Assembly (NCBI RefSeq): GCF_054482525.1 | Contig: NZ_CM137006.1 | Strand: one strand, 5' to 3' | Length of the DNA stretch: 64,000 nucleotides | In this document: positions 1 through 17,553 of the stretch, in pieces | Layout: each line of letters opens with the position of its first letter | How positions within the stretch are numbered: the stretch's first letter is position 1 | The notes under the pieces: generated by a model | Told to the model about the DNA's origin: nothing | Databases searched by the model: none | Seen by the model: only the letters and a program-made list of their open reading frames with translations | Translations under genes and position numbers: made by a program

Positions 1-44
1 AACATCTTTGCAATCTTTTTTTGCTTATCTGTTGCGTTTGACAT
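1..44 (-). CDS. orf110 hypothetical protein, 5' 44 nt only (rest lies left of window)
   Basis: Positions 1-44 correspond to 8744-8787 of the complete copy-2 ORF 8455-8787. Confidence 0.4.
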   Translation of the reverse strand, partial: MSNATDKQKKIAKM

Positions 45-67
45 TTTCCCTTTCCCTTCAACTAGAT

Positions 68-364
68 TTAATCATTACATTCAACCGTTGCTACGGTTCC
101 ATAATAAGTAATGTAAAGAAAACTTCCATTATTGAACTGGCCAACAGAGGTCGATACTTTTACCCCGTAAATGACATTTCCTTGTCTACCTGCAGAATTC
201 ACGAACGCATCATAGGCTTCCTGGTGCTCATTTCTCTTGCGCTCCATAAAACCACGAATTAAACCTTTATCAGAAATTTCAATAGGATAGGTCTTCTCAA
301 TAAATCCATGAATCTCTACTACTTTCATATTGGAGGGCAATGTATCAGTGCTTAACACTAACAT
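68..364 (-). CDS. orf98, hypothetical accessory protein (first gene of a minus-strand two-gene cassette)
   Basis: 98-aa ORF with AAGGA Shine-Dalgarno about 8 nt upstream of the ATG; no TM segment or signal peptide apparent; no family recognised by eye. Confidence 0.55.
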   Translation of the reverse strand: MLVLSTDTLPSNMKVVEIHGFIEKTYPIEISDKGLIRGFMERKRNEHQEAYDAFVNSAGRQGNVIYGVKVSTSVGQFNNGSFLYITYYGTVATVECND

Positions 365-471
365 GTTGATTTCCTTTCAATTAAAGAACCTTAATGACAT
401 TACTTAATTATTTCATTTCAATCAACAACATATGGGTTGTTTTTTATCATTCCGACACTATATCTAGGCGA

Positions 472-494
472 GATAACTAAAATGGCTAGTTATC
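472..494. promoter_or_regulatory. Operator-like palindrome GATAACTA-N7-TAGTTATC in the divergent promoter region between orf98 and the 96-aa gene (recurs at +8743 multiples)
   Basis: Perfect 8-bp inverted repeat with 7-bp spacer, flanked by direct CACTATA repeats (456-462, 494-500), about 25 bp upstream of the ATG at 519. Confidence 0.4.
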
Positions 495-518
495 ACTATA
501 CCTCTAAAGGATAAAATA

Positions 519-809
519 ATGGCTGACTTCTACATAACAGCAGTAAAATATGATGAAAATCATGAACATATCGTTAAGGTTAAAACACGGCAACGAGTTG
601 ATGGTAAGGTTAAAGCACCAAGCATCAATTCTCGCCAATTTATCGTCGAATTGATTAATACCGGAAAGGTATCATTTTGGACTGGATTACAGGATAGCGA
701 AGGACGATGGGGAAAAGGGGCTGACGTGACCGTAACCTCTACTGGTTTCCTGACTACATCACCAAATAATACCACTCGGGATAACCTCGGCGAATTGCCT
801 GAATTTTAA
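519..809 (+). CDS. Hypothetical small protein (96 aa), possibly DUF3892-like
   Basis: AAAGG Shine-Dalgarno 8 nt upstream; the DUF3892 assignment rests on a recalled pattern only (N-terminal Y-I-T-x-V, H-x-H-I, C-terminal DNL-x-x-LPE) and needs an HMM search. Confidence 0.5.
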   Translation: MADFYITAVKYDENHEHIVKVKTRQRVDGKVKAPSINSRQFIVELINTGKVSFWTGLQDSEGRWGKGADVTVTSTGFLTTSPNNTTRDNLGELPEF

Positions 810-817
810 CCAAAAAT

Positions 818-850
818 CAAACGTGCAGTGTAGGTAATACTGCACGTTTG
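818..850. terminator. Stem-loop (11-bp stem) between convergent 96-aa gene and HTH gene; likely bidirectional terminator (recurs per copy)
   Basis: CAAACGTGCAG-N11-CTGCACGTTTG; T-run on the minus-strand side (ATTTTTGG). Confidence 0.55.
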
Positions 851-873
851 TCTCATTCCTGAGACTCTACCTT

Positions 874-1320
874 TTACTGTTCATCGCCAGTGATTAATTT
901 TCTGGTTAACATCTTTGCACTGTAGCTATATGAACTTAAAGCAGAAACCTGTCTTGCAAGTGATATGATATCTTGCTTGTCCAATGTCCTGATGTTCCAG
1001 ATAATGAAGTTATGGGCATCAGTGGTTTCTTTGTCAGTGTAACCATCTGCTGAAGTGATCAACTTTCTTTCTGTTGCGTCTTCTTTAACCGCAAGTGCAT
1101 CACCATGAGCCAAGGTGTTTAAATCCGTACCAGTGATTTTTGCGATTTCGATCACATCACTGAACTTAGGTTCTGTTTTAGCAGTCGCTATCCTAACAAG
1201 TGTCCTTACGTTGATGCCGGTTTTGTCTGCGACTTCTTCGTATGTCCCATGCTCCAGGATAGCTTTCCGTATTCTTTCTGCTCGCTTGCTATCAGCCATA
1301 ACATACAACTCTCGATTCAT
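874..1320 (-). CDS. HTH (XRE/Cro-C1-type) transcriptional regulator, candidate prophage repressor
   Basis: 148 aa; helix-turn-helix signature around residues 26-46 (TYEEVADKTGINVRTLVRIA); GGAG Shine-Dalgarno 9 nt upstream; divergent from gII across an operator-rich intergenic region. Confidence 0.7.
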   Translation of the reverse strand: MNRELYVMADSKRAERIRKAILEHGTYEEVADKTGINVRTLVRIATAKTEPKFSDVIEIAKITGTDLNTLAHGDALAVKEDATERKLITSADGYTDKETTDAHNFIIWNIRTLDKQDIISLARQVSALSSYSYSAKMLTRKLITGDEQ

Positions 1321-1364
1321 CTTAGGTGCTCCAGTTTACATCACTCTTTTTAGATGCTTTTTTT

Positions 1365-1442
1365 CATGGACAAATATGTCCTTAAAAACAAGACATCGTA
1401 TTGACAACAGATCTCAACATGCTTAGCATTTATTTGTCCATG
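1365..1442. promoter_or_regulatory. Candidate operator pair in the HTH-gII divergent intergenic region (recurs per copy)
   Basis: 12-mer TATTTGTCCATG at 1431-1442 with its reverse complement at 1365-1377; embedded palindrome GGACA-N4-TGTCC at 1368-1381; a degenerate third copy near 1455-1472. Confidence 0.45.
1401..1429 (+). promoter_or_regulatory. Candidate sigma70 promoter for gII (TTGACA-17 bp-TAGCAT)
   Basis: Consensus -35 hexamer at 1401-1406, 17-bp spacer, -10-like TAGCAT at 1424-1429; operator 12-mer lies at the predicted start region. Confidence 0.35.
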
Positions 1443-1526
1443 ACTGAAAGACACATTTGTCTATTGACATGGTAAATACAGGTAAAAGTCATTTTGATTC
1501 ATGTTTACTTGACTGCTGAGACACTT

Positions 1527-2579
1527 ATGATCGACTGGTTTACCGGAATCCTGCCTTGCACACACCGACCGTTACCGGCCGGTAGCGTCGTCAGCGTTGA
1601 TGCTGATGGTGCGGTGGAGTGGGAAACAGTAAAACGGTTGACCGTTCGCGGTTCGTATGAATCAACGATGAAAGTAAGATCTGTTGGATCTGATGGCGAA
1701 GGTCGGGCAACACATCTTTATATTGATGGGAATCCTTCAAAATTCCTTCAGGGACATTCTGTTATTGGTTCTGATGATTTGCAGGGACTGGTATTAACCG
1801 TATACGCAAGAATACTGGCATTACTTCATATTCCTCATGATCTCCCGTCATATCGTCAGGTAATGTCTGGTCAGTATAAGATTTCCCGTATTGATATTAA
1901 TTATATGTATTCATTGTCAACACTGGAAAATGTCCGTGCATGGTTATATGCCGCAGAATTTAAAGCGAAAACTCGCCATGGTCGCGCCTGTGGTAAAGGT
2001 GGCACTGTTTACTTAGGGAAAAACTCCCGTCGTTGGAGCCTGAAATTTTATTCAAAATATGATGAGCATATATCTGGCAAAAAAGGGCACCAGATGGCAG
2101 ACGAATTCGTTAAAGCAGGTTTACTGGACTGGTCAAAAGATAAATTACGCATTGAATTAACATTAAGAACAACTGAATTAATTGATTTGAATCTTACGCT
2201 TGGTAATAGCTGGAATATTCAGACGCCCAATAAATTATTCTCTGACTATGTAGGGAGAATAGAAATGAATCAAAATACTATATTAACTGATGAAAAAATA
2301 ATTAATCTCCCAAGAAAAATACAGTCTACATATTTATTGTGGAAGCAGGGCGCGAACATGAAAGAGATGTTACCGAAACCTACATTCTACCGACACCGTA
2401 AAGAATTACTTTCTTTCGGAATAGATATTAACTTTTATTGTGAGTCACCGGATTCTAATAACGTTGTTCCGTTGGTTCGTATTCTTGAAGCCAAACCGGC
2501 CAAAATTCCATCATGGTTTTATGAGAAAGGTTTAATTTTCGATCATAACCGTATTTCACATGCCAGTAACTGGTATTAA
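1527..2579 (+). CDS. gII: Rolling-circle replication initiator, gene II protein homologue
   Basis: N-terminus MIDWF and C-terminal block NNVVPLVR align with M13 gIIp as recalled; alternative in-frame ATG at 1494 (ORF-track start). Confidence 0.85.
   Translation: MIDWFTGILPCTHRPLPAGSVVSVDADGAVEWETVKRLTVRGSYESTMKVRSVGSDGEGRATHLYIDGNPSKFLQGHSVIGSDDLQGLVLTVYARILALLHIPHDLPSYRQVMSGQYKISRIDINYMYSLSTLENVRAWLYAAEFKAKTRHGRACGKGGTVYLGKNSRRWSLKFYSKYDEHISGKKGHQMADEFVKAGLLDWSKDKLRIELTLRTTELIDLNLTLGNSWNIQTPNKLFSDYVGRIEMNQNTILTDEKIINLPRKIQSTYLLWKQGANMKEMLPKPTFYRHRKELLSFGIDINFYCESPDSNNVVPLVRILEAKPAKIPSWFYEKGLIFDHNRISHASNWY
2265..2579 (+). CDS. gX: Gene X-like protein, in-frame internal restart within gII
   Basis: Internal ATG preceded by GGGAG (9 nt); MNQNT start aligns with the M13 gX start (EGDSMNIYDD versus GRIEMNQNT). 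Confidence 0.55.
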   Translation: MNQNTILTDEKIINLPRKIQSTYLLWKQGANMKEMLPKPTFYRHRKELLSFGIDINFYCESPDSNNVVPLVRILEAKPAKIPSWFYEKGLIFDHNRISHASNWY

Positions 2580-2590
2580 AGGAGAGTGAT

Positions 2591-2908
2591 ATGTCTAATT
2601 ATGGTCTTTTTGTAAAAGGTAAAATGCTTGGTGCTCGCCAGCGTAATAAGGTCAATGGTCAGGGATACTATAATGAAATTGGTATTGGCTTAGAGATCCC
2701 TGATGGTTTTGGCGGCACTAAGCAAGACCAGATTATTATTCGTGTTTCTCAGGCTCTTGTTAATGCCGGTGTAATGAATCAGGCAAATAATCTTATCGGT
2801 AAGTTAGTCCAGATACCTGTATATGTTCGTGTCTGGTCAATGGAAGGTAGAGAAGGAGTAACTTATAATATTTCATCTGACGGTGGAATCACTGAAATAA
2901 AAGGTTAA
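2591..2908 (+). CDS. gV: Putative ssDNA-binding protein, gene V analogue
   Basis: 105-aa ORF immediately after gII with AAGGAGAG Shine-Dalgarno; Ff-like position; only weak motif resemblance to M13 gVp. Confidence 0.55.
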   Translation: MSNYGLFVKGKMLGARQRNKVNGQGYYNEIGIGLEIPDGFGGTKQDQIIIRVSQALVNAGVMNQANNLIGKLVQIPVYVRVWSMEGREGVTYNISSDGGITEIKG

Positions 2909-2910
2909 AT

Positions 2911-2997
2911 ATGGCTGATGTTATACAAATATTAATAGCGTCAGGCATTGTTATCTCTTTTGGCCTCGGCGCAATTACTGCGGGGGTTTTTCGTTAA
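2911..2997 (+). CDS. gVII: Minor coat protein, gene VII analogue (28 aa)
   Basis: MADVIQILIASGIVISFGLGAITAGVFR; hydrophobic; C-terminal half resembles M13 gVIIp; too short for the ORF track. Confidence 0.5.
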   Translation: MADVIQILIASGIVISFGLGAITAGVFR

Positions 2998-3092
2998 TGT
3001 ATATAGCTTATTTCTTCGGGGCTTATACCTTTGGTTTTGCCCTTTTCTACGCGGTCGGTTCATTTAAATCATTTTCTGACCGATTAATGTAA
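2997..3092 (+). CDS. gIX: Minor coat protein, gene IX analogue (31 aa)
   Basis: MYIAYFFGAYTFGFALFYAVGSFKSFSDRLM; start overlaps the gVII stop by 1 nt (TAATG), as is typical for Ff VII/IX coupling. Confidence 0.45.
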   Translation: MYIAYFFGAYTFGFALFYAVGSFKSFSDRLM

Positions 3093-3116
3093 TGTAACTT
3101 TAATGGAGTTATTTAT

Positions 3117-3359
3117 ATGAAAGTTTTGTCTTTTGTTAAATCTAAAATTGCAGTAGCTTCAACAGCGCTTTTTGTTTCTGCGAGTTCTTTTGCGGCAGCT
3201 GAGTCTACAGGCGGGACTGATTATGCAGGTCAGGCAATGGATGCATTACTGACTCAGGCAAATGATCTTATTGGTAAAGTATGGCCTGTCGTTGTTGCTG
3301 TGGTTGGTGCTGGCCTTGCCATTCGTATTTTTAAAAAATTCGCTTCTAAAGCAGTTTAA
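3117..3359 (+). CDS. gVIII: Major coat protein precursor
   Basis: 80 aa; signal peptide ending SFAAAE, acidic N-terminus, hydrophobic core, basic C-terminus [12 protein letters not shown] (inovirus major-coat signature); GGAG Shine-Dalgarno. Confidence 0.85.
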
Positions 3360-3369
3360 AATTCACTCA

Positions 3370-3392
3370 GGGGCATTTGTTGCCCCTTTATT
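3370..3392 (+). terminator. Rho-independent terminator after the major coat gene (recurs per copy)
   Basis: GGGGCA-tttgt-TGCCCC followed by TTTATT; same position as the strong terminator after gVIII in Ff phages. Confidence 0.65.
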
Positions 3393-3405
3393 AAATTGGG
3401 TTATT

Positions 3406-4650
3406 ATGAAAAGGAAAATATTAATTACTTTCTCTATTTTTATTTCTTCTTTTTCATATGCTGATTCATGGGAAAGCATTACTAAATCTACTTTTCAAAG
3501 CTCTGCATATGCTGAAAGTAAGCAAATAACCAACCAAGATGGTACTAAACAAACTGTTTATTATATTGATGCAACCATGCAGGCTTCTTCCTGTCAGGGA
3601 GCTAAAGACAGTGCTCAGGTTGTTTTTAATCAGGTTAAACCAACTTATGAGGGAATGTGGCCTAACTCTGAATTCCGTCTTGTATTTTCTGACGCTTGTA
3701 CTTACAGCGACTCTCCAGGCCAGAAAGATAAATACTGGACTTTAACTGCTTATATTATAGGTGATATTCAACGATCTATTCCTGATGAAAAACCTTCCGA
3801 GCCTACGCCTGAAGAGATTTGTGAAGCTAAACCCCCCGAAGAAGGTGTATTCAATAATGTCTATTCTTATGACGGTGATCGTTATATTTATTATAACGGT
3901 TGTGAATATGAGGCCACTGGCGTCATTGTTTGCCAGAGTGATAGCACTGTTTGTGCTGCGACATGGAAGCCTACCGGAACTGTAGCCGCACCTTCAGATA
4001 AGCCTTCTTCTCCTGTTGGCGATGGCGGTGATACTGGAGGCGGGGATACGGGTGATGGTGATACCGGTGGAGGTGATACAGGCGGTGGTAACCCAAGTGG
4101 CAGTTCTGGCGGTGGTAATGGCTCAAGTATCACCAAAGGAGATATTCAGTCAGCTATCGAAGGTGCTTCACCTAAAATTGCCAGTGAGATTCATGATAAG
4201 TTAACAGAAAAAGATACCTCATCTGATGATAAAAAGTCGGCTGATGAACAGACTAAAAATAATATAAATCGTCTTGTTGACTCTATAAATAACCTTACTC
4301 GCGGAGCCGGACGTTTTGCTGATCCTTCTGGCGGCGATTCCCGTTATGGGGAGGGGGGGTCTGAATTAGATAGCGCTTCCACTTTAGCTGAATCTGAATT
4401 AGGAATTGCAAAGGATTCTCATGGTGCGTTATGGGAGGCTTTCTTAAATAAAGGTGCTATGTTGCCCAATTTACCTAATGGTAATGGTTGTTCTGATTTT
4501 ATTATTTTCCCCGGAGAGGTTTATCAGATCGATATTGGCTGCGATAAATTACTGACTATTAAAAATGCTCTTTCATGGGTTTTTTATTGCCTTACGTTCT
4601 GGTATGTATTTACTTCTTTAACTTCATTGCTTCGTAAAGGTGGTGAGTGA
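3406..4650 (+). CDS. gIII: Minor coat / adsorption protein pIII
   Basis: Signal peptide [19 protein letters not shown], Cys-containing N-terminal domains, Gly/Asp-rich linker repeats, C-terminal membrane anchor; ORF-track ORF 3262-4650 trimmed to the first in-frame ATG after the gVIII terminator. Confidence 0.8.
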
Positions 4651-4991
4651 TGCCTTTATTATTAGGTATTCCTGCATTGTTGCGTTTTCTTATTGGTCTT
4701 GTTCCTTTACTTATTGGCTATGCGGCAAGTTTTTTAGCTCGGCTTGCAACCAAAACAGGTTTAATAGCGGTTGCATTGGTTGCGCTAATTACAACAACTG
4801 TTACGCTTTTAATGCAGTACCTTGCTGAGGTCATGTATATCGGGTTACCCGCTGATTTTTCACATCTAATGGCGTCTGTACTGCCTGACCATTTTCAGGC
4901 GTGTGTTAACGTTATTATGGTTACTCGTATCAGTGTTTTTGTTTTCGATTTAAAACAAAAATTTCTTGATTATGCAAACAGGGTGATTTAA
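4647..4991 (+). CDS. gVI: Minor coat protein pVI
   Basis: 114 aa, hydrophobic; [15 protein letters not shown] aligns with M13 pVI MPVLLGIPLLLRFL. Confidence 0.8.
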
Positions 4992-6086
4992 ATGGCGGTT
5001 CATGTAGTAACAGGCAAATTAGGCTCAGGCAAGACACTGGTTAGTGTTTCCAGAATACAGGAAAGACTGGCTAAGGGTTGTCCTGTTGCCACTAATCTTG
5101 ATCTTAAATTGCATAATATGCCTATGGTTGGGCGTTATGCTAAAAAAACGCGCGTTATTCGTGTTCCTGATAAGCCTTCATTAAATGATTTACTGGCTAT
5201 TGGTATTGGAAATACATCTTACGATGAATCCCGCAATGGCCTTTTAGTGCTTGATGAATGTGGTACTTGGTTTAATTCCCGTTCATGGGGTGATAAAGAC
5301 AGACAACCTGTTATTGACTGGTTTTTACATGCCCGTAAATTAGGTTGGGATATTATTTTTTTGATTCAGGATATTTCGATAATGGATAAGCAAGCTCGTC
5401 TGGCACTTGCTGAACATGTTGTTTATTGTCGCCGTTCAGATAAATTAAACATTCCTTTTATTGGCTCTATTATAAATTTAGTTTCAGGAGCGCGATTTTC
5501 TTTACCAAAGGTACACTTTGGTATTGTTAAATATGGTGATAACGTTAATTCAATTACTGTTGATAAATGGATATACACCGGAAAATCATTATATTCCGCC
5601 TACAATACAAAACAGGTTTTTACTGATAACTATCCGCATGGTGCTTATTCTCTTTTACCGCCATTTATTACACATGGCCAGTTTTCTGTTCACAAAGGAC
5701 TTAATTATTATATGCGCCTCACGAAAATTTATTTCCGAAAATCAAACCGATTAATATTAATGCTTTCATTTTTTGCCTTTGGGCTTGGGCTTGGCTTCTG
5801 GCTACAATCTGGTAAGAATGCCGATGAAATTTCGGCTATTAAATCAGTTCATGCTGAACAGGTGAGGGCGGTAACACCTGACAGTACCAGCGATTTACCG
5901 AGACTTTCTATTGATTCTTTCTCTCAGCTTGGTTTTGATGTTTCTGTTACGTTTGTTGACGCTAAGGGTATGAAGTACCAGTATTTTGATTTAATTAAAG
6001 ATGGTTATTCCGTTGATATTAAAGATGCCTGCCGAATTGTTATCAGAAAAGGCCATTATTTACAAAGCGTCACCTGTCAGGAGTAA
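4992..6086 (+). CDS. gI: Assembly ATPase pI (Zot-like)
   Basis: 364 aa; Walker A GKLGSGKT; extensive similarity to M13 pI along the length as recalled. Confidence 0.9.
   Translation: MAVHVVTGKLGSGKTLVSVSRIQERLAKGCPVATNLDLKLHNMPMVGRYAKKTRVIRVPDKPSLNDLLAIGIGNTSYDESRNGLLVLDECGTWFNSRSWGDKDRQPVIDWFLHARKLGWDIIFLIQDISIMDKQARLALAEHVVYCRRSDKLNIPFIGSIINLVSGARFSLPKVHFGIVKYGDNVNSITVDKWIYTGKSLYSAYNTKQVFTDNYPHGAYSLLPPFITHGQFSVHKGLNYYMRLTKIYFRKSNRLILMLSFFAFGLGLGFWLQSGKNADEISAIKSVHAEQVRAVTPDSTSDLPRLSIDSFSQLGFDVSVTFVDAKGMKYQYFDLIKDGYSVDIKDACRIVIRKGHYLQSVTCQE
5712..6086 (+). CDS. gXI: pXI-like protein, in-frame internal restart within gI
   Basis: Internal Met at codon 241 (MRLTKIYFRK), the same codon position as M13 pXI (MKLTKIYLKK). 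Confidence 0.5.
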   Translation: MRLTKIYFRKSNRLILMLSFFAFGLGLGFWLQSGKNADEISAIKSVHAEQVRAVTPDSTSDLPRLSIDSFSQLGFDVSVTFVDAKGMKYQYFDLIKDGYSVDIKDACRIVIRKGHYLQSVTCQE

Positions 6087-6093
6087 TATTACT

Positions 6094-7359
6094 ATGCGTT
6101 TATTTTGCATTGCCATCTTATTCATTTATTCTTTTTGTGTTTCTGCTGAAACTGTTAATCTTAATAATTCATCCGTTCGTTCATTTGTCCAGTGGTATTC
6201 ATCAAAAACTGGTAAGCCTGTTATTGTTAACCCCGATGTTAAAGGCTCCGTAACAGTATTTAATGCTGATGTTAATCCCACAAATATTGATGACTTTTTC
6301 AAATCTGTTCTGAATGCTAATGGATTTGTCATGCTTTCTGGTAATCCTGCGGTAGTATCTTTGCCGTCAAAATTACCGTCACAGATGGCATCAGACCCTG
6401 ATGATTCCGATAATCAGTCTTATGACTCTTTTCCGCCAGAGCCATCCTGTCAGCCAGCGCCTGTGGCGCTCACTGTCAGAAATTTTAAGCTGACAAAAGT
6501 ACGAGCGTCTGATGTTCAGCAACTGGTTAAAATTTATCTGGATTCGAATGGCGGGGGTAATGTCGTGGATTATCCCGGCAATAACTCCCTGATTGTATCT
6601 GCGCCTGACGAGCTACTGCCTGTTCTGTCCAATTTCATTAACTCAGTTGATGTTGCCCGTGATCAGGTACTCATTCAATCGCTCATGTTTGAAACCAGTT
6701 TGTCTGATGGTGTTGATTTGTCATTTGCAGCTGGCTCTGCATCCGGCCATAAGGTGGCGGGGGGTTTTAATACTTCTGCGCTGGGTAATGCTCTTTCTAC
6801 GGTGGGCGGCTCTTTTGGTATTTTTGATGGTAACGTGTTGGCGCTGTCTCTGCGTGCTGTCCAGAGTAATTCACGCTCTAAGGTGATTTCAACACCGCGC
6901 ATTCTTACTCAGTCCGGTCAGACTGGTTATATTTCCGTAGGTAAGAATGTGCCGTTTATCACAGGAAAGGTAACGGGTGAATCTGCTGGGGTAAATAATC
7001 CGTTTCAGACTATCGAACGTCATGATGTTGGCGTTTCTCTCAAGGTAACGCCTGTTGTCATGGGGAACGGGCAATTAGTTTTGACCATCGATACCCGCGC
7101 CGATTCAATCAGCAATGATGACCAAGCATCTGATATTATTACTAATCAGCGCCAGATTCAGACCACTGTTCAGATTAAGGATGGCCAGACTCTCTTACTT
7201 GGTGGGTTGATTGATTCATCATCCAGCAATGCTGACCGTTCTGTACCATTTATCAGCAAAATTCCGGTAATTGGCTGGCTTTTCAGGAGTAAAGCTGACA
7301 GTAATGAGCAACGCATTATGTATGTCCTGCTGACTGCTCATATTATTCGTGCGCTTTGA
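6094..7359 (+). CDS. gIV: Secretin pIV (outer-membrane export channel)
   Basis: 421 aa from the ATG with AGGAG Shine-Dalgarno; signal peptide MRLFCIAILFIYSFCVSA; secretin motifs conserved with M13 pIV (e.g. GQNVPFITG-like, VPFISKIPVIG). Confidence 0.9.
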   Translation: MRLFCIAILFIYSFCVSAETVNLNNSSVRSFVQWYSSKTGKPVIVNPDVKGSVTVFNADVNPTNIDDFFKSVLNANGFVMLSGNPAVVSLPSKLPSQMASDPDDSDNQSYDSFPPEPSCQPAPVALTVRNFKLTKVRASDVQQLVKIYLDSNGGGNVVDYPGNNSLIVSAPDELLPVLSNFINSVDVARDQVLIQSLMFETSLSDGVDLSFAAGSASGHKVAGGFNTSALGNALSTVGGSFGIFDGNVLALSLRAVQSNSRSKVISTPRILTQSGQTGYISVGKNVPFITGKVTGESAGVNNPFQTIERHDVGVSLKVTPVVMGNGQLVLTIDTRADSISNDDQASDIITNQRQIQTTVQIKDGQTLLLGGLIDSSSSNADRSVPFISKIPVIGWLFRSKADSNEQRIMYVLLTAHIIRAL

Positions 7360-7402
7360 TGGGGCCGTGGCGGGTGCGTTAAGCCCCGGTATGGCCCCAT
7401 CA
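7357..7402 (+). terminator. Compound hairpin immediately after the secretin gene stop (recurs per copy)
   Basis: TGATGGGGCC ... GGCCCCATCA 10-bp inverted repeat enclosing a GC-rich inner region; start of the phage intergenic region. Confidence 0.4.
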
Positions 7403-7799
7403 AGAGCCAGATTTTACGTCTCACCACGGAGCCTCTATATGGCCTTAAAACTGACAGGATATGAACAGAAAAACATCTTCTAGGTGATTCAATTACTTAG
7501 AGGTTTTTATGTCTGTAAAAAGTAGGGGCGCGATCGACTTCCTGGTGGTCGCCTGAAGTCTTACCGTCGTGTTGGTTCACATTTTACCAGTTGTTCCAAG
7601 TGGTTTGATAAATCACCGTCCTGGTATCGCAATATGATGATGACCCGGCCAGAGCGCCGTGAAGTCAGAAAGCTTCTCAATCAGGTTGTACGTGGCCGTG
7701 ACGCTGACGGCATCGCATTTCCGGTCAGCAACAAGCCATTTGCATGGCGGTGGTGAACATTTTTAGCCGCTAAAACTTCATGCTGACGGAATTATCGAA

Positions 7800-7844
7800 A
7801 ACCCCGTACAGCAACAAAACTTGTTTTTGTTGCTGTACGGGGTT
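7800..7844. other. Perfect 20-bp-stem hairpin (5-nt loop) in the intergenic region: candidate packaging signal and/or minus-strand terminator for orf81 (recurs per copy)
   Basis: AAACCCCGTACAGCAACAAAA-cttgt-TTTTGTTGCTGTACGGGGTT; TTTTC follows on the minus strand. Confidence 0.5.
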
Positions 7845-7906
7845 GGCCAAGCCGCAACAGTACTCTATTTTTCTTTGGAGTTAATTGCGGCGCGGCTAGG
7901 GATGTA

Positions 7907-8152
7907 TCAGACTTTAATCTTAACTACTTTTTCAGTGCCGGTCATAAAACTAACCAGCTTCTTGCGGCCATCGGGATACTCTTTAATGACACATCCTTCT
8001 GGCGTATTTTTTTCAGCGTAATAAATAGGGACGCCACTAAGAAGACAGGCTCGGGCTGCTTCACCGACATCATGTTCTAGTTGCTGCTCGAAAACAGTCA
8101 AGAACTCTGCTTCCTCTGATGGTGTCATTTCAGCTAAATATGATAAGTCCAT
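7907..8152 (-). CDS. orf81, hypothetical accessory protein
   Basis: 81-aa ORF between the intergenic hairpin region and the att site; the 20-bp-stem hairpin at 7800-7844 is followed by a T-run on the minus strand and could terminate it. Confidence 0.45.
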   Translation of the reverse strand: MDLSYLAEMTPSEEAEFLTVFEQQLEHDVGEAARACLLSGVPIYYAEKNTPEGCVIKEYPDGRKKLVSFMTGTEKVVKIKV

Positions 8153-8354
8153 AAATGCTCATGCCTTCTGTAATTCATTGCTTAGTAACAATGATGAACA
8201 GGCCTGATTGGTGAGGTCAGGCTGTTCACTTACTGCTGACAGACATTTGATTCTGATTCGTTTGGAGAAACGGATGATTTTGAATCATTGTCGATAGTAA
8301 CCAGTTGACGGCCAGTGTCAACGATCCCCGCCAGATTCTGCCATCCTTACCATT

Positions 8355-8387
8355 GGTGCGCATAATGTGCTACACGTTATGTTGAAA
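8355..8387 (+). other. Phage att (dif-like) site at copy junction: XerC arm GGTGCGCATAA, 11-bp spacer TGTGCTACACG, XerD-like arm TTATGTTGAAA
   Basis: Perfect match to the XerC-binding arm of E. coli dif; best XerD-like arm (9 of 11) is displaced 5 bp relative to dif geometry. Confidence 0.8.
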
Positions 8388-8420
8388 AGGCCGCTGCGAA
8401 AATAGAACCCCGCAGCGGCC
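8385..8420 (-). terminator. Rho-independent terminator for the minus-strand orf98-orf110 cassette, abutting the att site (recurs per copy)
   Basis: GGCCGCTGCG-N12-CGCAGCGGCC with a T-run on the minus strand (8385-8388). Confidence 0.55.
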
Positions 8421-8454
8421 TCTTTAGCATAACGTCATTGTGCGAACCAATTAT

Positions 8455-8787
8455 TTATTTTTTTGATTTTTGAGTTGCCTCAATTTCTTTTTTTAAACCA
8501 TGAAGGTTTTTATGACCGGTTCCCTTTGGTTGTAACTGTCCCCTTTGTAACTTACTGATTCTATTTCCTCTTTCTGATATTACTATTTCATCATTCAGGG
8601 ATTTTTCAATCAATGCATACAACGCATTGAATACTTTGATGTTTTCTGATTCCCTCAACTCTTCGAGGATTTTACTTAGTTGTAGAAAGTCATTAATTAA
8701 ACTAACGCCATTTTTAGGATCGTAAAACTCCTCATGTCGTTTTAACATCTTTGCAATCTTTTTTTGCTTATCTGTTGCGTTTGACAT
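8455..8787 (-). CDS. orf110, hypothetical accessory protein (second gene of the minus-strand cassette)
   Basis: 110 aa, charged, basic C-terminal tail, no TM segment; 23-bp gap after orf98; followed by a hairpin plus T-run terminator at 8385-8420. Confidence 0.55.
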   Translation of the reverse strand: MSNATDKQKKIAKMLKRHEEFYDPKNGVSLINDFLQLSKILEELRESENIKVFNALYALIEKSLNDEIVISERGNRISKLQRGQLQPKGTGHKNLHGLKKEIEATQKSKK

Positions 8788-8810
8788 TTTCCCTTTCCCT
8801 TCAACTAGAT

Positions 8811-9107
8811 TTAATCATTACATTCAACCGTTGCTACGGTTCCATAATAAGTAATGTAAAGAAAACTTCCATTATTGAACTGGCCAACAGAGGTCGATAC
8901 TTTTACCCCGTAAATGACATTTCCTTGTCTACCTGCAGAATTCACGAACGCATCATAGGCTTCCTGGTGCTCATTTCTCTTGCGCTCCATAAAACCACGA
9001 ATTAAACCTTTATCAGAAATTTCAATAGGATAGGTCTTCTCAATAAATCCATGAATCTCTACTACTTTCATATTGGAGGGCAATGTATCAGTGCTTAACA
9101 CTAACAT
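8811..9107 (-). CDS. orf98 hypothetical accessory protein (copy 2)
   Basis: Repeat of 68-364 at +8743; identical translation. Confidence 0.55.
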   Translation of the reverse strand: MLVLSTDTLPSNMKVVEIHGFIEKTYPIEISDKGLIRGFMERKRNEHQEAYDAFVNSAGRQGNVIYGVKVSTSVGQFNNGSFLYITYYGTVATVECND

Positions 9108-9261
9108 GTTGATTTCCTTTCAATTAAAGAACCTTAATGACATTACTTAATTATTTCATTTCAATCAACAACATATGGGTTGTTTTTTATCATTCCGACA
9201 CTATATCTAGGCGAGATAACTAAAATGGCTAGTTATCACTATACCTCTAAAGGATAAAATA

Positions 9262-9552
9262 ATGGCTGACTTCTACATAACAGCAGTAAAATATGATGAA
9301 AATCATGAACATATCGTTAAGGTTAAAACACGGCAACGAGTTGATGGTAAGGTTAAAGCACCAAGCATCAATTCTCGCCAATTTATCGTCGAATTGATTA
9401 ATACCGGAAAGGTATCATTTTGGACTGGATTACAGGATAGCGAAGGACGATGGGGAAAAGGGGCTGACGTGACCGTAACCTCTACTGGTTTCCTGACTAC
9501 ATCACCAAATAATACCACTCGGGATAACCTCGGCGAATTGCCTGAATTTTAA
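9262..9552 (+). CDS. Hypothetical small protein (96 aa), possibly DUF3892-like (copy 2)
   Basis: Repeat of 519-809 at +8743. Confidence 0.5.
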   Translation: MADFYITAVKYDENHEHIVKVKTRQRVDGKVKAPSINSRQFIVELINTGKVSFWTGLQDSEGRWGKGADVTVTSTGFLTTSPNNTTRDNLGELPEF

Positions 9553-9616
9553 CCAAAAATCAAACGTGCAGTGTAGGTAATACTGCACGTTTGTCTCATT
9601 CCTGAGACTCTACCTT

Positions 9617-10063
9617 TTACTGTTCATCGCCAGTGATTAATTTTCTGGTTAACATCTTTGCACTGTAGCTATATGAACTTAAAGCAGAAACCTGTCTTGC
9701 AAGTGATATGATATCTTGCTTGTCCAATGTCCTGATGTTCCAGATAATGAAGTTATGGGCATCAGTGGTTTCTTTGTCAGTGTAACCATCTGCTGAAGTG
9801 ATCAACTTTCTTTCTGTTGCGTCTTCTTTAACCGCAAGTGCATCACCATGAGCCAAGGTGTTTAAATCCGTACCAGTGATTTTTGCGATTTCGATCACAT
9901 CACTGAACTTAGGTTCTGTTTTAGCAGTCGCTATCCTAACAAGTGTCCTTACGTTGATGCCGGTTTTGTCTGCGACTTCTTCGTATGTCCCATGCTCCAG
10001 GATAGCTTTCCGTATTCTTTCTGCTCGCTTGCTATCAGCCATAACATACAACTCTCGATTCAT
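9617..10063 (-). CDS. HTH regulator, candidate repressor (copy 2)
   Basis: Repeat of 874-1320 at +8743. Confidence 0.7.
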   Translation of the reverse strand: MNRELYVMADSKRAERIRKAILEHGTYEEVADKTGINVRTLVRIATAKTEPKFSDVIEIAKITGTDLNTLAHGDALAVKEDATERKLITSADGYTDKETTDAHNFIIWNIRTLDKQDIISLARQVSALSSYSYSAKMLTRKLITGDEQ

Positions 10064-10269
10064 CTTAGGTGCTCCAGTTTACATCACTCTTTTTAGATGC
10101 TTTTTTTCATGGACAAATATGTCCTTAAAAACAAGACATCGTATTGACAACAGATCTCAACATGCTTAGCATTTATTTGTCCATGACTGAAAGACACATT
10201 TGTCTATTGACATGGTAAATACAGGTAAAAGTCATTTTGATTCATGTTTACTTGACTGCTGAGACACTT

Positions 10270-11322
10270 ATGATCGACTGGTTTACCGGAATCCTGCCTT
10301 GCACACACCGACCGTTACCGGCCGGTAGCGTCGTCAGCGTTGATGCTGATGGTGCGGTGGAGTGGGAAACAGTAAAACGGTTGACCGTTCGCGGTTCGTA
10401 TGAATCAACGATGAAAGTAAGATCTGTTGGATCTGATGGCGAAGGTCGGGCAACACATCTTTATATTGATGGGAATCCTTCAAAATTCCTTCAGGGACAT
10501 TCTGTTATTGGTTCTGATGATTTGCAGGGACTGGTATTAACCGTATACGCAAGAATACTGGCATTACTTCATATTCCTCATGATCTCCCGTCATATCGTC
10601 AGGTAATGTCTGGTCAGTATAAGATTTCCCGTATTGATATTAATTATATGTATTCATTGTCAACACTGGAAAATGTCCGTGCATGGTTATATGCCGCAGA
10701 ATTTAAAGCGAAAACTCGCCATGGTCGCGCCTGTGGTAAAGGTGGCACTGTTTACTTAGGGAAAAACTCCCGTCGTTGGAGCCTGAAATTTTATTCAAAA
10801 TATGATGAGCATATATCTGGCAAAAAAGGGCACCAGATGGCAGACGAATTCGTTAAAGCAGGTTTACTGGACTGGTCAAAAGATAAATTACGCATTGAAT
10901 TAACATTAAGAACAACTGAATTAATTGATTTGAATCTTACGCTTGGTAATAGCTGGAATATTCAGACGCCCAATAAATTATTCTCTGACTATGTAGGGAG
11001 AATAGAAATGAATCAAAATACTATATTAACTGATGAAAAAATAATTAATCTCCCAAGAAAAATACAGTCTACATATTTATTGTGGAAGCAGGGCGCGAAC
11101 ATGAAAGAGATGTTACCGAAACCTACATTCTACCGACACCGTAAAGAATTACTTTCTTTCGGAATAGATATTAACTTTTATTGTGAGTCACCGGATTCTA
11201 ATAACGTTGTTCCGTTGGTTCGTATTCTTGAAGCCAAACCGGCCAAAATTCCATCATGGTTTTATGAGAAAGGTTTAATTTTCGATCATAACCGTATTTC
11301 ACATGCCAGTAACTGGTATTAA
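10270..11322 (+). CDS. gII: Replication initiator gII homologue (copy 2)
   Basis: Repeat of 1527-2579 at +8743; nested gX-like restart at 11008. Confidence 0.85.
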   Translation: MIDWFTGILPCTHRPLPAGSVVSVDADGAVEWETVKRLTVRGSYESTMKVRSVGSDGEGRATHLYIDGNPSKFLQGHSVIGSDDLQGLVLTVYARILALLHIPHDLPSYRQVMSGQYKISRIDINYMYSLSTLENVRAWLYAAEFKAKTRHGRACGKGGTVYLGKNSRRWSLKFYSKYDEHISGKKGHQMADEFVKAGLLDWSKDKLRIELTLRTTELIDLNLTLGNSWNIQTPNKLFSDYVGRIEMNQNTILTDEKIINLPRKIQSTYLLWKQGANMKEMLPKPTFYRHRKELLSFGIDINFYCESPDSNNVVPLVRILEAKPAKIPSWFYEKGLIFDHNRISHASNWY

Positions 11323-11333
11323 AGGAGAGTGAT

Positions 11334-11651
11334 ATGTCTAATTATGGTCTTTTTGTAAAAGGTAAAATGCTTGGTGCTCGCCAGCGTAATAAGGTCAATG
11401 GTCAGGGATACTATAATGAAATTGGTATTGGCTTAGAGATCCCTGATGGTTTTGGCGGCACTAAGCAAGACCAGATTATTATTCGTGTTTCTCAGGCTCT
11501 TGTTAATGCCGGTGTAATGAATCAGGCAAATAATCTTATCGGTAAGTTAGTCCAGATACCTGTATATGTTCGTGTCTGGTCAATGGAAGGTAGAGAAGGA
11601 GTAACTTATAATATTTCATCTGACGGTGGAATCACTGAAATAAAAGGTTAA
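11334..11651 (+). CDS. gV: Putative ssDNA-binding protein gV analogue (copy 2)
   Basis: Repeat at +8743. Confidence 0.55.
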   Translation: MSNYGLFVKGKMLGARQRNKVNGQGYYNEIGIGLEIPDGFGGTKQDQIIIRVSQALVNAGVMNQANNLIGKLVQIPVYVRVWSMEGREGVTYNISSDGGITEIKG

Positions 11652-11653
11652 AT

Positions 11654-11740
11654 ATGGCTGATGTTATACAAATATTAATAGCGTCAGGCATTGTTATCTC
11701 TTTTGGCCTCGGCGCAATTACTGCGGGGGTTTTTCGTTAA
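11654..11740 (+). CDS. gVII: gVII analogue (copy 2)
   Basis: Repeat at +8743. Confidence 0.5.
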   Translation: MADVIQILIASGIVISFGLGAITAGVFR

Positions 11741-11835
11741 TGTATATAGCTTATTTCTTCGGGGCTTATACCTTTGGTTTTGCCCTTTTCTACGCGGTCG
11801 GTTCATTTAAATCATTTTCTGACCGATTAATGTAA
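11740..11835 (+). CDS. gIX: gIX analogue (copy 2)
   Basis: Repeat at +8743. Confidence 0.45.
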   Translation: MYIAYFFGAYTFGFALFYAVGSFKSFSDRLM

Positions 11836-11859
11836 TGTAACTTTAATGGAGTTATTTAT

Positions 11860-12102: not shown

Positions 12103-12148
12103 AATTCACTCAGGGGCATTTGTTGCCCCTTTATTAAATTGGGTTATT

Positions 12149-14829: not shown

Positions 14830-14836
14830 TATTACT

Positions 14837-17530: not shown

Positions 17531-17553
17531 TTTCCCTTTCCCTTCAACTAGAT

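What the first reader, a model, noticed from the sequence alone, without database searches (positions are those of the whole stretch)
874..1526. Lysogeny-type switch: HTH regulator divergent from gII with paired inverted operator 12-mers
Seen in sequence: a 148-aa HTH protein is encoded opposite to gII. The 173-bp intergenic region contains TATTTGTCCATG (1431-1442) and its reverse complement (1365-1377), an embedded GGACA-N4-TGTCC palindrome (1368-1381), a third degenerate copy overlapping a TTGACA hexamer (1464-1469), and a TTGACA-17-TAGCAT promoter-like element pointing at gII. Established knowledge: classical Ff phages have no repressor, whereas CTX-phi uses RstR divergent from rstA. Inference: this phage controls replication-gene transcription with a repressor. 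The protein is too short to carry a LexA/CI-type S24 autocleavage domain and I found no obvious LexA box, so induction may not be directly SOS-coupled.
Basis: partly seen in the sequence, partly recalled or inferred. Interest (0 to 1): 0.6.

Follow-up and report, generated by a model that had tools for sequence, protein, structure and literature searches.

The report
Filamentous prophage repressor-operator immunity switch
A small DNA-binding protein encoded back-to-back with the replication gene of a filamentous prophage (four tandem copies at the E. coli dif site) most likely shuts off that gene by binding short palindromes in the gap between them; this is the expected, though never experimentally tested, immunity switch of the CUS-1/YpfPhi phage family.

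Summary
A 148-aa Cro/CI-type HTH protein (874-1320, minus strand) lies divergent from gII. The gap contains the inverted 12/13-mer, the GGACA-N4-TGTCC palindrome and a TTGACA-17-TAGCAT promoter. One correction: gII starts at ATG 1527, so the gap is 206 bp, not 173.

The repeats exceed chance (separated inverted repeat of 13 nt or more, P about 0.0003). Comparison with eleven alleles of this regulator family suggests the recognition unit is a 14-bp palindrome rather than the 12-mer. Here that is rGACA-N4-TGTCy: O1 at 1368-1381, O3 at 1449-1462, and a half-site O2 over the -10/+1 of the gII promoter.

Half-sites are conserved within alleles. They differ between alleles in step with the recognition helix (Arg39 with GACA, Ser39 with CTCA), and they do not track gII. 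O1, the promoter and O3 keep fixed positions in most alleles (nine of the eleven for O1 and O3), with O1 and O3 80-81 bp apart.

The protein is not an RstR-family member (14.7 bits against a cutoff of 80). It has no S24 domain, and the gap has no LexA box.

Verdict: a repressor-operator immunity cassette analogous to CTXphi rstR/ig-2, in a dif-integrated CUS-1/YpfPhi-type prophage. It is a new member of a known kind and of moderate interest.

The parts
1..34597 (.). Perfect tandem array (period 8743 bp, at least 3.96 copies; the window starts inside it) of a CUS-1/YpfPhi-type filamentous prophage.
   Evidence: Self-comparison is 100% identical at offset 8743 up to position 25854/34597. It is 98% identical from gII through the secretin gene to an annotated E. 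coli prophage.
874..1320 (-). 148-aa Cro/CI-type HTH regulator, the putative immunity repressor. It has an HTH domain at residues 11-72, a flexible linker, and a C-terminal helical hairpin at 97-144.
   Evidence: Pfam HTH_3 1.6e-6. PHROG 3557 1e-61. AF2 mean pLDDT 82. The N-terminal domain superposes on P22 c2, 434 Cro and SinR at 1.2-2 A.
1321..1526 (.). 206-bp divergent control region between the regulator and gII (the switch).
   Evidence: Homology to prophages carrying other regulator alleles begins exactly at the gII ATG.
1368..1381 (.). O1: perfect palindrome GGACA-AATA-TGTCC. Its centre lies about -61.5 from the predicted gII transcription start and about 48 bp upstream of the regulator ATG.
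   Evidence: The same position (+47 to +50 from the regulator ATG) holds an allele-specific palindrome (perfect 5-N4-5 in six, one half-site mismatch in F and in Vibrio L004) in the eight alleles scanned; B and C carry an equivalent but asymmetric bipartite motif near that position; no 5-N4-5 palindrome was found in L037.
1427..1440 (.). O2: half operator. The right half TGTCC (1436-1440) is conserved. The left half is degenerate and overlaps the -10 TAGCAT.
   Evidence: TATTTGTC(C/T) is kept in L028.
1449..1462 (.). O3: perfect palindrome AGACA-CATT-TGTCT, about +14 to +27 from the predicted gII transcription start and 81 bp from O1.
   Evidence: The position (+129 to +131) and the 80-81 bp spacing from O1 are conserved in alleles A, A', D, G and H; E and F have a one-sided O3 at about the same place, and B, C, Vibrio L004 and L037 depart from it.
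1401..1429 (+). Predicted gII promoter: TTGACA, 17 nt, TAGCAT.
   Evidence: 10 of 12 consensus matches. A TTGAYN-17-TANNMT element at the same relative position (+80 to +85) matched in 7 of the 11 alleles under the pattern used; an eighth match (G) is at +71 with a 16-nt spacer, B fits by eye (TACATT), and no match was found in C or in Vibrio L004.
1462..1469 (+). Second TATTGACA box abutting O3. It is conserved across alleles and its role is unexplained.
   Evidence: In most alleles it lies only 20-27 nt before the rep start codon, so it is not the rep -35.
1364..1376 (.). Left arm of the 13-nt exact inverted repeat (TCATGGACAAATA): the O1 left half plus its flank.
1431..1443 (.). Right arm of the 13-nt exact inverted repeat (TATTTGTCCATGA), which is O2.
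1333..1338 (-). Candidate -10 (TAAACT) for the regulator's own promoter. Low confidence.
   Evidence: Read by eye. The motif TA(A/G)A(A/C)T-GGAG recurs upstream of the regulator ATG in alleles A, A', B, E and F. The scan tool found no consensus leftward promoter.
1527..2579 (+). gII, the rolling-circle replication initiator (350 aa) and the regulated target.
   Evidence: PHROG 702 1e-119. Exact protein present in public data as 'replication protein, II/X family'.
9617..10269 (.). Copy 2 of the regulator plus switch (identical).
18360..19012 (.). Copy 3 of the regulator plus switch (identical).
27103..27755 (.). Copy 4 of the regulator plus switch (identical).
34584..34611 (+). Host dif site (GGTGCGCATAATGTATATTATGTTAAAT) closing the array. 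Imperfect dif-like junctions start at 8355, 17098 and 25841.
   Evidence: Identifying this 28-mer as E. coli dif rests on established knowledge.

Best explanation
The 148-aa protein is the immunity repressor of a dif-integrated CUS-1/YpfPhi-type filamentous prophage.

Proposed mechanism:
- It binds as a dimer through a Cro/CI-type HTH to 14-bp palindromes rGACA-N4-TGTCy in the 206-bp gap.
- O2 covers the -10/+1 of the gII promoter (TTGACA-17-TAGCAT) and O3 lies at about +14 to +27. Together they block initiation or early elongation of the gII-gV-structural operon, which keeps rolling-circle replication and virion production low and gives immunity to superinfection by phages of the same allele.
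- O1 is a fixed 81 bp upstream of O3, at about -61 from the gII start and just upstream of the regulator's own start. It probably mediates autoregulation. It may also loop to O3 through oligomerisation of the C-terminal helical hairpin.
- The regulator plus gap form an exchangeable specificity cassette. Its right-hand boundary is exactly the gII ATG, so related prophages with other alleles should be heteroimmune.
- Induction is probably not through RecA autocleavage or LexA.

Shown here: the anatomy, the statistics, the conservation, and the covariation of operator with recognition helix.

Inferred: binding, repression, oligomeric state, looping, autoregulation, and the induction route.
For: 1. 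The protein is a Cro/CI-type HTH.
2. The divergent regulator-rep layout is found in all relatives fetched.
3. The repeats exceed chance.
4. In other alleles an allele-specific bipartite motif occurs three times, and only in the gap. In UTI89 it is TGCTCA-N4-TGAC (3 hits, 0.01 expected). In APEC E19057 it is GWACA-N4-TGTSAC (3 hits, 0.02 expected).
5. Half-sites are under purifying selection while spacers and flanks drift. Between the window and L028, 24 of 25 half-site positions are identical against 101 of 163 other positions (Fisher P = 4e-4). In group B, 27 of 27 half-site columns are invariant against 98 of 144 others (P = 1e-4).
6. Half-site and recognition helix vary together.
   - Alleles with xxR..IA(T) use GACA: the window, L028, Vibrio L004, P0074 and P0078.
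   - Alleles with SVS use GCTCA: UTI89, P0040 and P0073.
   - The SVR..LASGQ allele (P0036) uses TGCCA.
   - The operators of P0078, P0074 and P0073 were predicted from the helix before their loci were read, and all three predictions held.
7. gII is 96% identical between the window and E19057, while the regulators are 43% identical and the palindromes differ. The sites therefore track the regulator, not gII.
8. The geometry is fixed in most alleles: O1 at +48 to +50, -35 at +80 to +85, O3 at +129 to +131.
9. Literature:
   - YpfPhi lysogens are partly immune to superinfection, and YPO2273 was proposed to be RstR-like (PMC4266046).
   - Allele-specific RstR/ig-2 repression has been demonstrated in CTXphi (PMC11509585).
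   - The HTH repressor FpsR of phage SW1 binds the rep-gene promoter (PMC4762005).
Against: - There is no experimental binding or repression data for any member of this family. The review states the role 'awaits experimental demonstration'.
- No consensus promoter for the regulator itself was found.
- O2 is only a half-site.
- O1-O3 spacing of 81 bp is about 7.7 helical turns, so it is not obviously in phase for looping.
- One allele (L037) has a different site architecture. Groups B and C have asymmetric rather than palindromic sites.
- The motifs were defined after inspecting the data, so the per-motif P values are optimistic.
- A conserved TTGACA(GG) box next to O3 is unexplained by this model.
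Confidence: 0.8

Rival explanations
1. The inverted repeats are structural elements of the single-stranded phage DNA, such as a minus-strand origin or packaging hairpin, or are binding or nicking sites for the gII replication protein (plus origin). On this reading they are not operators.
For: - The region folds better than shuffles as ssDNA (z = -2.7 and -3.3).
- Ff minus-strand origins are promoter-like hairpins (established knowledge).
- Two conserved TTGACA boxes lie in the region, and no origin has been located elsewhere in this phage.
Against: - The predicted folds are only small local hairpins on each palindrome. The MFE structure has an ensemble frequency below 0.001 and an energy of -17 to -19 kcal/mol over 141 nt.
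- The 13-nt long-range complementarity is not kept in the 88%-identical allele L028.
- Within alleles the half-sites are invariant while the N4 centres vary without compensation.
- Groups B and C have two direct copies and one inverted copy.
- The palindromes differ between phages whose gII is 96% identical, and they covary with the HTH recognition helix.
Confidence: 0.07
2. The HTH protein binds the palindromes, but mainly as an activator or autoregulator of leftward genes (itself and the accessory cargo), or as an antitoxin-like regulator. On this reading it is not the repressor of gII.
For: - O1 lies about 48 bp upstream of a candidate -10 for the regulator, which has no recognisable -35. 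That is an activator-like geometry, as with lambda CI at PRM.
- XRE-family HTH proteins include many antitoxins and activators.
- Homologues at about 55% identity occur on 40-57 kb plasmid-like contigs outside filamentous phages.
Against: - O2 overlaps the -10/+1 of the gII promoter and O3 lies just downstream of it. These are classical repression positions.
- The gene downstream of the regulator differs between alleles, whereas the rep gene is always the divergent partner.
- YpfPhi lysogens show superinfection immunity (PMC4266046).
Confidence: 0.1
3. The repeats are chance features of an AT-rich intergenic region, and the HTH gene is an unrelated cargo gene.
For: The simplest statistic, longest inverted match including self-palindromes, gives only P = 0.065. 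Two perfect 5-N4-5 palindromes alone give P = 0.04.
Against: - The separated 13-nt inverted repeat has P of about 0.0003, and the GACA enrichment was reached by 0 of 3000 shuffles.
- Equivalent site sets recur at the same positions in most of the alleles examined.
- Half-site conservation is significant.
Confidence: 0.02

Closest known systems
CTXphi RstR / ig-2 immunity module (Vibrio cholerae)
   Same: - A small HTH repressor without a protease domain is encoded divergently from the replication gene of a dif-integrated filamentous prophage that forms tandem arrays.
- The compact gap carries about three binding sites (PMC4762005, Fig. 4 legend).
- Regulator plus gap form an allele-specific cassette that determines immunity (PMC11509585).
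- Here the cassette is bounded exactly at the gII ATG. In alleles B and C it is also bounded on the left by a 96%-identical membrane-protein gene.
   Different: - It is not an RstR-family protein. The NCBIfam RstR model scores 14.7 bits against a cutoff of 80. BLASTP to RstR-ET gives 28% identity over 43 residues of the HTH only.
- It is longer (148 against 112 aa) and has a conserved C-terminal helical hairpin.
- Its operators are short 14-bp palindromes.
- The gap has no LexA box, whereas CTXphi induction requires LexA cleavage (Quinones et al. 2005, cited in PMC11509585).
- The rep gene is of the gII/CRI type, not RstA.
YPO2273 of Yersinia pestis YpfPhi and the regulator of E. coli CUS-1
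   Same: The phage type is the same: gII, gV, coat genes, g3, g6, Zot-like g1, secretin, variable cargo next to attL, dif integration, and 2-4 tandem copies (PMC4266046). The regulator sits in the same place. The UTI89-type allele is 75% identical in protein.
   Different: - The window carries a different allele. None of 5,426 complete E. coli genomes has this regulator and gap at more than 76% nucleotide identity, and none matches the gap at all.
- Its operators are GACA-type, whereas the UTI89-type allele uses GCTCA.
- YPO2273 itself was not compared directly. That UTI89 carries the CUS-1/YpfPhi allele is an inference from its O18:K1:H7 lineage.
- The function of YPO2273 has not been tested.
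FpsR of Shewanella filamentous phage SW1
   Same: A roughly 13-kDa Cro/CI-type HTH repressor that lacks a protease domain, is encoded opposite the replication gene, and is shown by EMSA to bind the rep-gene promoter (PMC4762005).
   Different: In SW1 the two promoters are separated and have long overlapping 5'UTRs, and FpsR does not bind its own promoter. SW1 was not among the five records, all Vibrio phages, that tblastn found with the window regulator at E <= 1e-3. It is not known whether SW1 is in that collection.
Cro/CI-type dimeric HTH repressors on short palindromes (434 Cro/cI, P22 c2) and SinR-type proteins (HTH plus helical oligomerisation domain)
   Same: The N-terminal domain superposes at 1.2-2 A rmsd over about 63 residues. 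Half-sites about 9 bp apart centre to centre fit a dimer contacting successive major grooves. The variable residues that correlate with half-site identity sit at the start of the recognition helix (37-39) and within it (46).
   Different: There is no sequence-level relative with a solved structure. The C-terminal hairpin has no confident structural match. There is no S24 domain.

Membership tests
RstR family transcriptional repressor (NCBIfam NF041951) | Protein scores at or above the curated cutoff (80 bits) of the family HMM. | tested here: not met
   14.7 bits, E = 0.027. CTXphi RstR-ET scores 139.5 bits as a positive control.
RstR family transcriptional repressor (NCBIfam NF041951) | Encoded divergently from the phage replication gene, with operators in the shared gap. 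| tested here: met
   The CTXphi layout was checked in L005. Operator status is inferred, not shown.
RstR family transcriptional repressor (NCBIfam NF041951) | LexA site in the control region, coupling induction to SOS. | tested here: not met
   No CTGT-N8-ACAG with up to 1 mismatch and no CTG-N10-CAG in 1290-1540.
RstR family transcriptional repressor (NCBIfam NF041951) | Allele-specific repression of the cognate promoter (immunity). | not testable with these tools
   Only indirect support: operator half-sites covary with recognition-helix residues across 11 alleles.
PHROG 3557 (inovirus HTH regulator; CUS-1/YpfPhi-type regulator) | Full-length match to the family profile: HTH plus C-terminal IIWN..L helical region. 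| tested here: met
   1.1e-61 over residues 2-143 of 148. The UTI89, E19057 and Vibrio homologues hit the same family. The family is small, with 234 representatives at E <= 1e-3 among 1.84 billion.
PHROG 3557 (inovirus HTH regulator; CUS-1/YpfPhi-type regulator) | Direct homology to YPO2273 of YpfPhi. | not tested
Its relation is inferred through the UTI89 allele and PMC4266046.
Cro/CI-type HTH (Pfam HTH_3, PF01381) | Pfam domain match and the five-helix fold. | tested here: met
   HTH_3 i-Evalue 1.6e-6 over residues 24-68. AF2 helices span 11-72 with pLDDT above 90. Foldseek matches P22 c2, 434 Cro and SinR N-terminal domains at rmsd 1.2-2 A.
LexA/lambda-CI-type autocleaving repressors | C-terminal Peptidase_S24 domain. 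| tested here: not met
   No S24 hit even at E <= 10. The C-terminus is predicted as a two-helix hairpin.
CUS-1/YpfPhi-type dif-integrating filamentous prophage | Inovirus gene set (gII, gV, g7/9, g8, g3, g6, Zot-like g1, secretin g4) with variable cargo beside attL. | tested here: met
   97.8% nucleotide identity across window 1527-8462 to an annotated E. coli prophage with these genes.
CUS-1/YpfPhi-type dif-integrating filamentous prophage | Integration at chromosomal dif as tandem repeats with imperfect dif junctions. | tested here: met
   The array ends at GGTGCGCATAATGTATATTATGTTAAAT (34584-34611). Internal junctions read GGTGCGCATAATGTGCTACACG... at 8355, 17098 and 25841. This matches the 2-4 copies described for YpfPhi (PMC4266046).

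The most novel reading that the evidence does not exclude
The PHROG 3557 regulators and their gaps form a conserved switch scaffold with plug-in specificity. In most of the alleles examined, two palindromic operators are held 80-81 bp apart around a fixed rep promoter, from E. coli to metagenomic alleles. A simple recognition code at the start of helix 3 sets heteroimmunity groups: Arg39/Thr46 reads GACA, Ser39 reads CTCA, and the SVR..LASGQ helix reads GCCA. Repression would work by a tetramer-mediated loop enclosing the promoter (lac/gal-like) rather than by simple occlusion. Induction would run through a route independent of RecA and LexA, for example a host SlyA/RovA-type factor or an antirepressor.
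Probability: 0.35. Interest if true: 0.5.

Novelty: new member of a known kind. Interest (0 to 1): 0.33.

Why it matters
Filamentous prophages of the CUS-1/YpfPhi type are widespread in extraintestinal pathogenic E. coli, Salmonella and Yersinia pestis, and they modestly affect fitness in the host. What keeps them quiet, and what makes co-resident phages compatible, has never been tested.

This analysis gives a concrete and cheap experimental handle:
- defined 14-bp operators;
- a predicted promoter;
- a set of natural alleles with predicted non-overlapping specificities;
- a one- or two-residue specificity swap to try.

If confirmed, it would extend the CTXphi immunity paradigm to a sequence-unrelated repressor family in Enterobacterales. 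It could also supply a small set of orthogonal repressor-operator pairs. It does not overturn any current view.

Tried and rejected
- **LexA box:** no CTGT-N8-ACAG with up to 1 mismatch in the gap. The only site with 2 mismatches lacks both CTG and CAG.
- **Known RNA families:** nothing relevant in 1-9000 at E <= 0.1.
- **Solved-structure relatives by sequence:** none better than E = 0.2. Whole-chain fold matches are weak (TM about 0.4) and only the HTH domain matches well.
- **RstR membership:** rejected.
- **Phage collection:** megablast found only a 6% match, to gene I of I2-2. tblastn with the regulator found only five Vibrio inoviruses.
- **Consensus leftward promoter for the regulator:** none at 9 of 12 or better. 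Manual candidates are weak, so autoregulation stays an inference.
- **The 12-mer as the operator unit:** rejected in favour of the 14-bp palindrome. L028 keeps the half-sites but not the 12-mer identity.
- **The TTGACA at 1464-1469 as the gII -35:** rejected. In most alleles it lies only 20-27 nt before the rep start codon.
- **ssDNA hairpin or origin reading:** considered and judged unlikely.
- **Defence or toxin annotation of the cargo ORFs:** no convincing PADLOC or NCBIfam hits. One of the seven scanned ORFs hits DUF3892.
- **Literature:** no paper in the library reports experiments on YPO2273 or on CUS-1-type regulators.
Full report
**What is in the window**

Positions 1-34597 are a perfect tandem array with a period of 8743 bp. 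It holds at least 3.96 copies, all 100% identical, and the window begins inside it. The array ends at GGTGCGCATAATGTATATTATGTTAAAT (34584-34611), the E. coli dif site, and a fimbrial operon follows. The internal junctions are imperfect dif-like sites at 8355, 17098 and 25841.

From the gII start to just past the junction (1527-8462), the unit is 97.8% identical to an annotated E. coli prophage. That prophage carries gII, a ssDNA-binding protein, G7P, the major coat protein, the attachment protein, DUF5455 (g6), a Zot-like g1 and a secretin. This is the CUS-1/YpfPhi type of filamentous prophage, which is known to integrate at dif as 2-4 tandem copies (PMC4266046). The finding's module therefore occurs four times, at 1321, 10064, 18807 and 27550.

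**Check of the observation**

- CATGGACAAATA at 1365-1376 and TATTTGTCCATG at 1431-1442. The exact complementarity is 13 nt, 1364-1376 against 1431-1443.
- GGACA-AATA-TGTCC at 1368-1381.
- ATTTGTCTAT at 1455-1464, abutting TTGACA at 1464-1469.
- TTGACA-17-TAGCAT at 1401-1429, the best sigma-70 match in the region.

The 148-aa ORF at 874-1320 (minus strand) is a Cro/CI-type HTH protein (Pfam HTH_3 at 1.6e-6; PHROG 3557 at 1e-61).

Two corrections apply. First, gII starts at ATG 1527. That gives the 350-aa protein with the conserved MIDWFTG N-terminus, and the exact protein is present in public data. Homology to relatives begins at that ATG. The gap is therefore 206 bp, not 173. Second, some database entries start the regulator at M8 (141 aa). 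A GGAG 8-10 nt upstream of the first ATG and a 6-7-residue extension in most alleles examined (13 residues in the E19057/group C allele) favour the 148-aa form.

On statistics, the crude longest-inverted-match measure, which counts self-palindromes, gives only P = 0.065. A separated inverted repeat of at least 13 nt occurred in 1 of 3000 dinucleotide shuffles. GACA/TGTC occurs 9 times against a background of 1.6, and none of 3000 shuffles reached that. RGACA-N4-TGTCY is found in the 64 kb only at 1368 and 1449 and at their tandem copies, against 0.19 expected. That motif was chosen after inspecting the data.

**What the repeats are: comparative evidence**

I collected the regulator-rep gap from three allele groups in E. 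coli and IMG/VR contigs. I added more distant alleles from public assemblies and a Vibrio inovirus. In every locus where the neighbouring gene could be identified, the regulator lies divergent from a gII/CRI-type replication gene; in L034 the divergent neighbour is an unannotated 213-aa ORF. The gaps are unalignable between alleles, yet most keep the same geometry, measured from the regulator ATG:

| Element | Position from regulator ATG |
|---|---|
| O1 palindrome | +47 to +50 |
| TTGAC -35 box (TAnnAT 17 bp later) | +80 to +85 |
| O3 site | +129 to +131 |
| Second TTGACA box | +141 to +146 |

O1 and O3 are 80-81 bp apart. Not every allele fits this table. Group C and Vibrio L004 have no TTGAC box at +80 to +85. 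In group C the three sites are spaced differently. L037 has no palindrome at the O1 position.

The half-sites are specific to each allele:

| Allele | Locus | Operators |
|---|---|---|
| A | window | GGACA-N4-TGTCC and AGACA-N4-TGTCT |
| A' (88% identical regulator) | L028 | GGACA-TATC-TGTCC and AGACA-CTTT-TGTCT |
| B | UTI89 | TGCTCA-N4-TGAC, three copies, only in the gap |
| C | E19057 | GWACA-N4-TGTSAC, three copies, only in the gap |
| D | L030 | TGCCA-CATG-TGGCA and TGCCA-CTTC-TGGCT |
| E | L032 | ATGCTCA-TTAG-TGAGCAT |
| Vibrio | L004 | GACA-ATTG-TGTC |

Within alleles the half-sites are conserved while the N4 centres and flanks drift. Between the window and L028, 24 of 25 half-site positions are identical against 101 of 163 elsewhere in the gap (Fisher P = 4e-4). 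Across eight group-B variants, 27 of 27 half-site columns are invariant against 98 of 144 others (P = 1e-4).

The recognition unit is therefore more likely the 14-bp palindrome. O2 (1427-1440) is a half-site whose degenerate half overlaps the -10.

**Covariation with the protein**

AF2 places the recognition helix at residues 38-45. Its sequence correlates with the half-site:
- Alleles with xxR...IAT(A/G)K use GACA. These are the window and L028 (NVR), Vibrio L004 (GSR), P0074 (NSR) and P0078 (GTR).
- Alleles with SVS use GCTCA. These are UTI89, P0040 and P0073, even though UTI89 and P0040 are only 60% identical overall.
- P0036 (SVR...LASGQ) uses TGCCA.

For P0078, P0074 and P0073 I predicted the half-site from the helix sequence before reading their loci. 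All three predictions held. One allele, L037 (helix SKS), has a different site architecture.

By contrast, gII is 96% identical between the window and E19057, while their regulators are 43% identical and their palindromes differ. The sites therefore follow the regulator, not the replication protein.

In alleles B and C the gene on the other side of the regulator is a 140-aa membrane protein that is 96% identical between them. The regulator plus gap is thus a cassette bounded on both sides. On the right, the boundary is exactly the gII ATG.

**The protein**

AF2 (mean pLDDT 82) predicts three parts:
- a five-helix HTH domain at residues 11-72, with pLDDT above 90;
- a poorly ordered linker at 75-96;
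- a confident two-helix hairpin at 97-144.

The HTH domain superposes on P22 c2, 434 Cro, SinR, DdrO and C-proteins at 1.2-2 A. The C-terminal part has no confident match, and no homologue with a solved structure exists by sequence.

There is no Peptidase_S24 domain. The protein fails the RstR family model, scoring 14.7 bits against a cutoff of 80 where RstR-ET scores 139.5. It shares only 28% identity with RstR over 43 HTH residues.

The family is small. It has 234 50%-identity representatives at E <= 1e-3 among 1.84 billion proteins, and only a few dozen of those cover both domains.

**Mechanism proposed**

If transcription starts about 7 nt after TAGCAT, near 1436, the sites sit as follows:
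- O2 covers the -10/+1.
- O3 lies at about +14 to +27.
- O1 is centred near -61.5.

A dimer on each palindrome fits the geometry, because the half-site centres are about 9 bp apart. O2 and O3 are 22 bp apart, roughly two helical turns, which would allow cooperative binding. The invariant 80-81-bp spacing between O1 and O3, together with the conserved C-terminal hairpin, suggests higher-order assembly or looping. At 10.5 bp per turn, however, 81 bp is 7.7 turns, so this is only a hypothesis.

O1 is also the natural site for autoregulation. No consensus leftward promoter was found. A recurrent TA(A/G)A(A/C)T just before the GGAG upstream of the regulator ATG is a weak candidate -10. If real, it would give a very short leader.

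The gap has no LexA box. Induction is therefore probably not wired as in CTXphi. In Y. pestis the host regulator RovA represses the corresponding operon (PMC4266046), so a SlyA/RovA-type input is possible in E. coli.

**Rivals**

An ssDNA hairpin or origin reading is not excluded outright. The region folds better than shuffles (z = -2.7 and -3.3), but only into small local hairpins with ensemble frequency below 0.001. This reading does not explain four things: the uncompensated variation in the spacers, the mix of direct and inverted copies in groups B and C, the loss of the 13-mer complementarity in L028, and the covariation with the HTH.

A gII-binding role is contradicted by near-identical gII proteins paired with different palindromes. 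An activator-only role is hard to square with sites on and just downstream of the -10/+1. Chance is excluded by the comparative data.

**Relation to what is known**

Functionally this is the analogue of CTXphi rstR/ig-2. That module is an allele-specific repressor and promoter cassette (PMC11509585) with three binding sites in a compact divergent region (PMC4762005). It also resembles SW1 FpsR, whose binding to the rep promoter is demonstrated (PMC4762005).

[quoted passage not shown] I found no later experimental work.

The window's allele is rare. Among 5,426 complete E. coli genomes, 659 carry related phage DNA. None has this regulator at more than 76% nucleotide identity, and none matches the gap. 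The identical protein does occur in other E. coli and Salmonella assemblies.

**Verdict**

The finding is a new allele, and the first operator-level description, of a known kind of switch. It is not a new kind of system. Interest is moderate to low, at 0.33. The comparative operator and recognition-helix pattern is the most useful product, because it is directly testable.

Noticed in passing
window 1-34611: The prophage is present as about four perfectly identical tandem copies (period 8743 bp) ending at the host dif site. Imperfect dif-like junctions (GGTGCGCATAATGTGCTACACGTTATG...) lie between copies. The window starts inside the array, so the true copy number may be higher.
   Followed up: yes
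window 1462-1469 (and L035, L037, L034, L036, L004 at +141 to +146 from the regulator ATG): A box (C/T)TTGACA(G/T)G, followed in most alleles by a T-run and then a G-run, sits right after O3. In most alleles it lies only 20-27 nt before the rep start codon, so it cannot be the rep -35. The T-run/G-run leader (for example ACAGGTTTTTTGGGGAGG in L037) resembles the M13 gene II leader CCTGTTTTTGGGGCTTTTCTG. From memory, that M13 leader is the gene V protein translational operator.
   Followed up: partly
window 1411-1416 (AGATCT); equivalent positions in L002, L001, L028, L030: A GATC (Dam) site, usually within AGATCT, sits in the spacer of the predicted gII promoter in alleles A, A', most of B, C and D, even though the gaps are otherwise unalignable. 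It is lost in L007 and L018. This may point to methylation-sensitive promoter control.
   Followed up: no
window 8455-8787(-), 8811-9107(-), 9262-9552(+) (the last two also at 68-364(-) and 519-809(+) in copy 1; only the first 44 nt of the 8455-8787 ORF fall in copy 1, at 1-44): Three small cargo ORFs (110, 98 and 96 aa) lie between the dif-like junction and the regulator. They differ from the cargo of CUS-1-type relatives and have no NCBIfam or PADLOC match. The 96-aa ORF hits PHROG 32719 (unknown function). One of the ORFs scanned hits DUF3892. The 98-aa and 110-aa ORFs look like a two-gene operon.
   Followed up: partly
L003 996-1859 (E. coli A20 prophage, cargo slot left of the regulator): A related filamentous prophage carries a TIR-domain protein gene and a second ORF in the attL-adjacent cargo position. 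This suggests the slot can hold defence-type cargo.
   Followed up: no
L002 1948-2370(-) and L001 3497-3919(-): A 140-aa predicted membrane protein lies immediately downstream of the regulator. It is 96% identical between alleles B and C although the regulators are only about 43% identical. It marks the left boundary of the swapped cassette. The window allele lacks it.
   Followed up: partly
window 874-1320 (database records for the same protein): Public annotations disagree on the start codon (148 aa against 141 aa, 'MADSKRAE...'). The upstream GGAG and the extension length in most alleles favour the longer form.
   Followed up: partly
hits H51-H57; P0044-P0065: Homologues of the regulator (about 55-62% identical, 122-127 aa) occur on 40-57 kb E. 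coli, Salmonella and Klebsiella plasmid-like records. The family is therefore not confined to filamentous phages.
   Followed up: no
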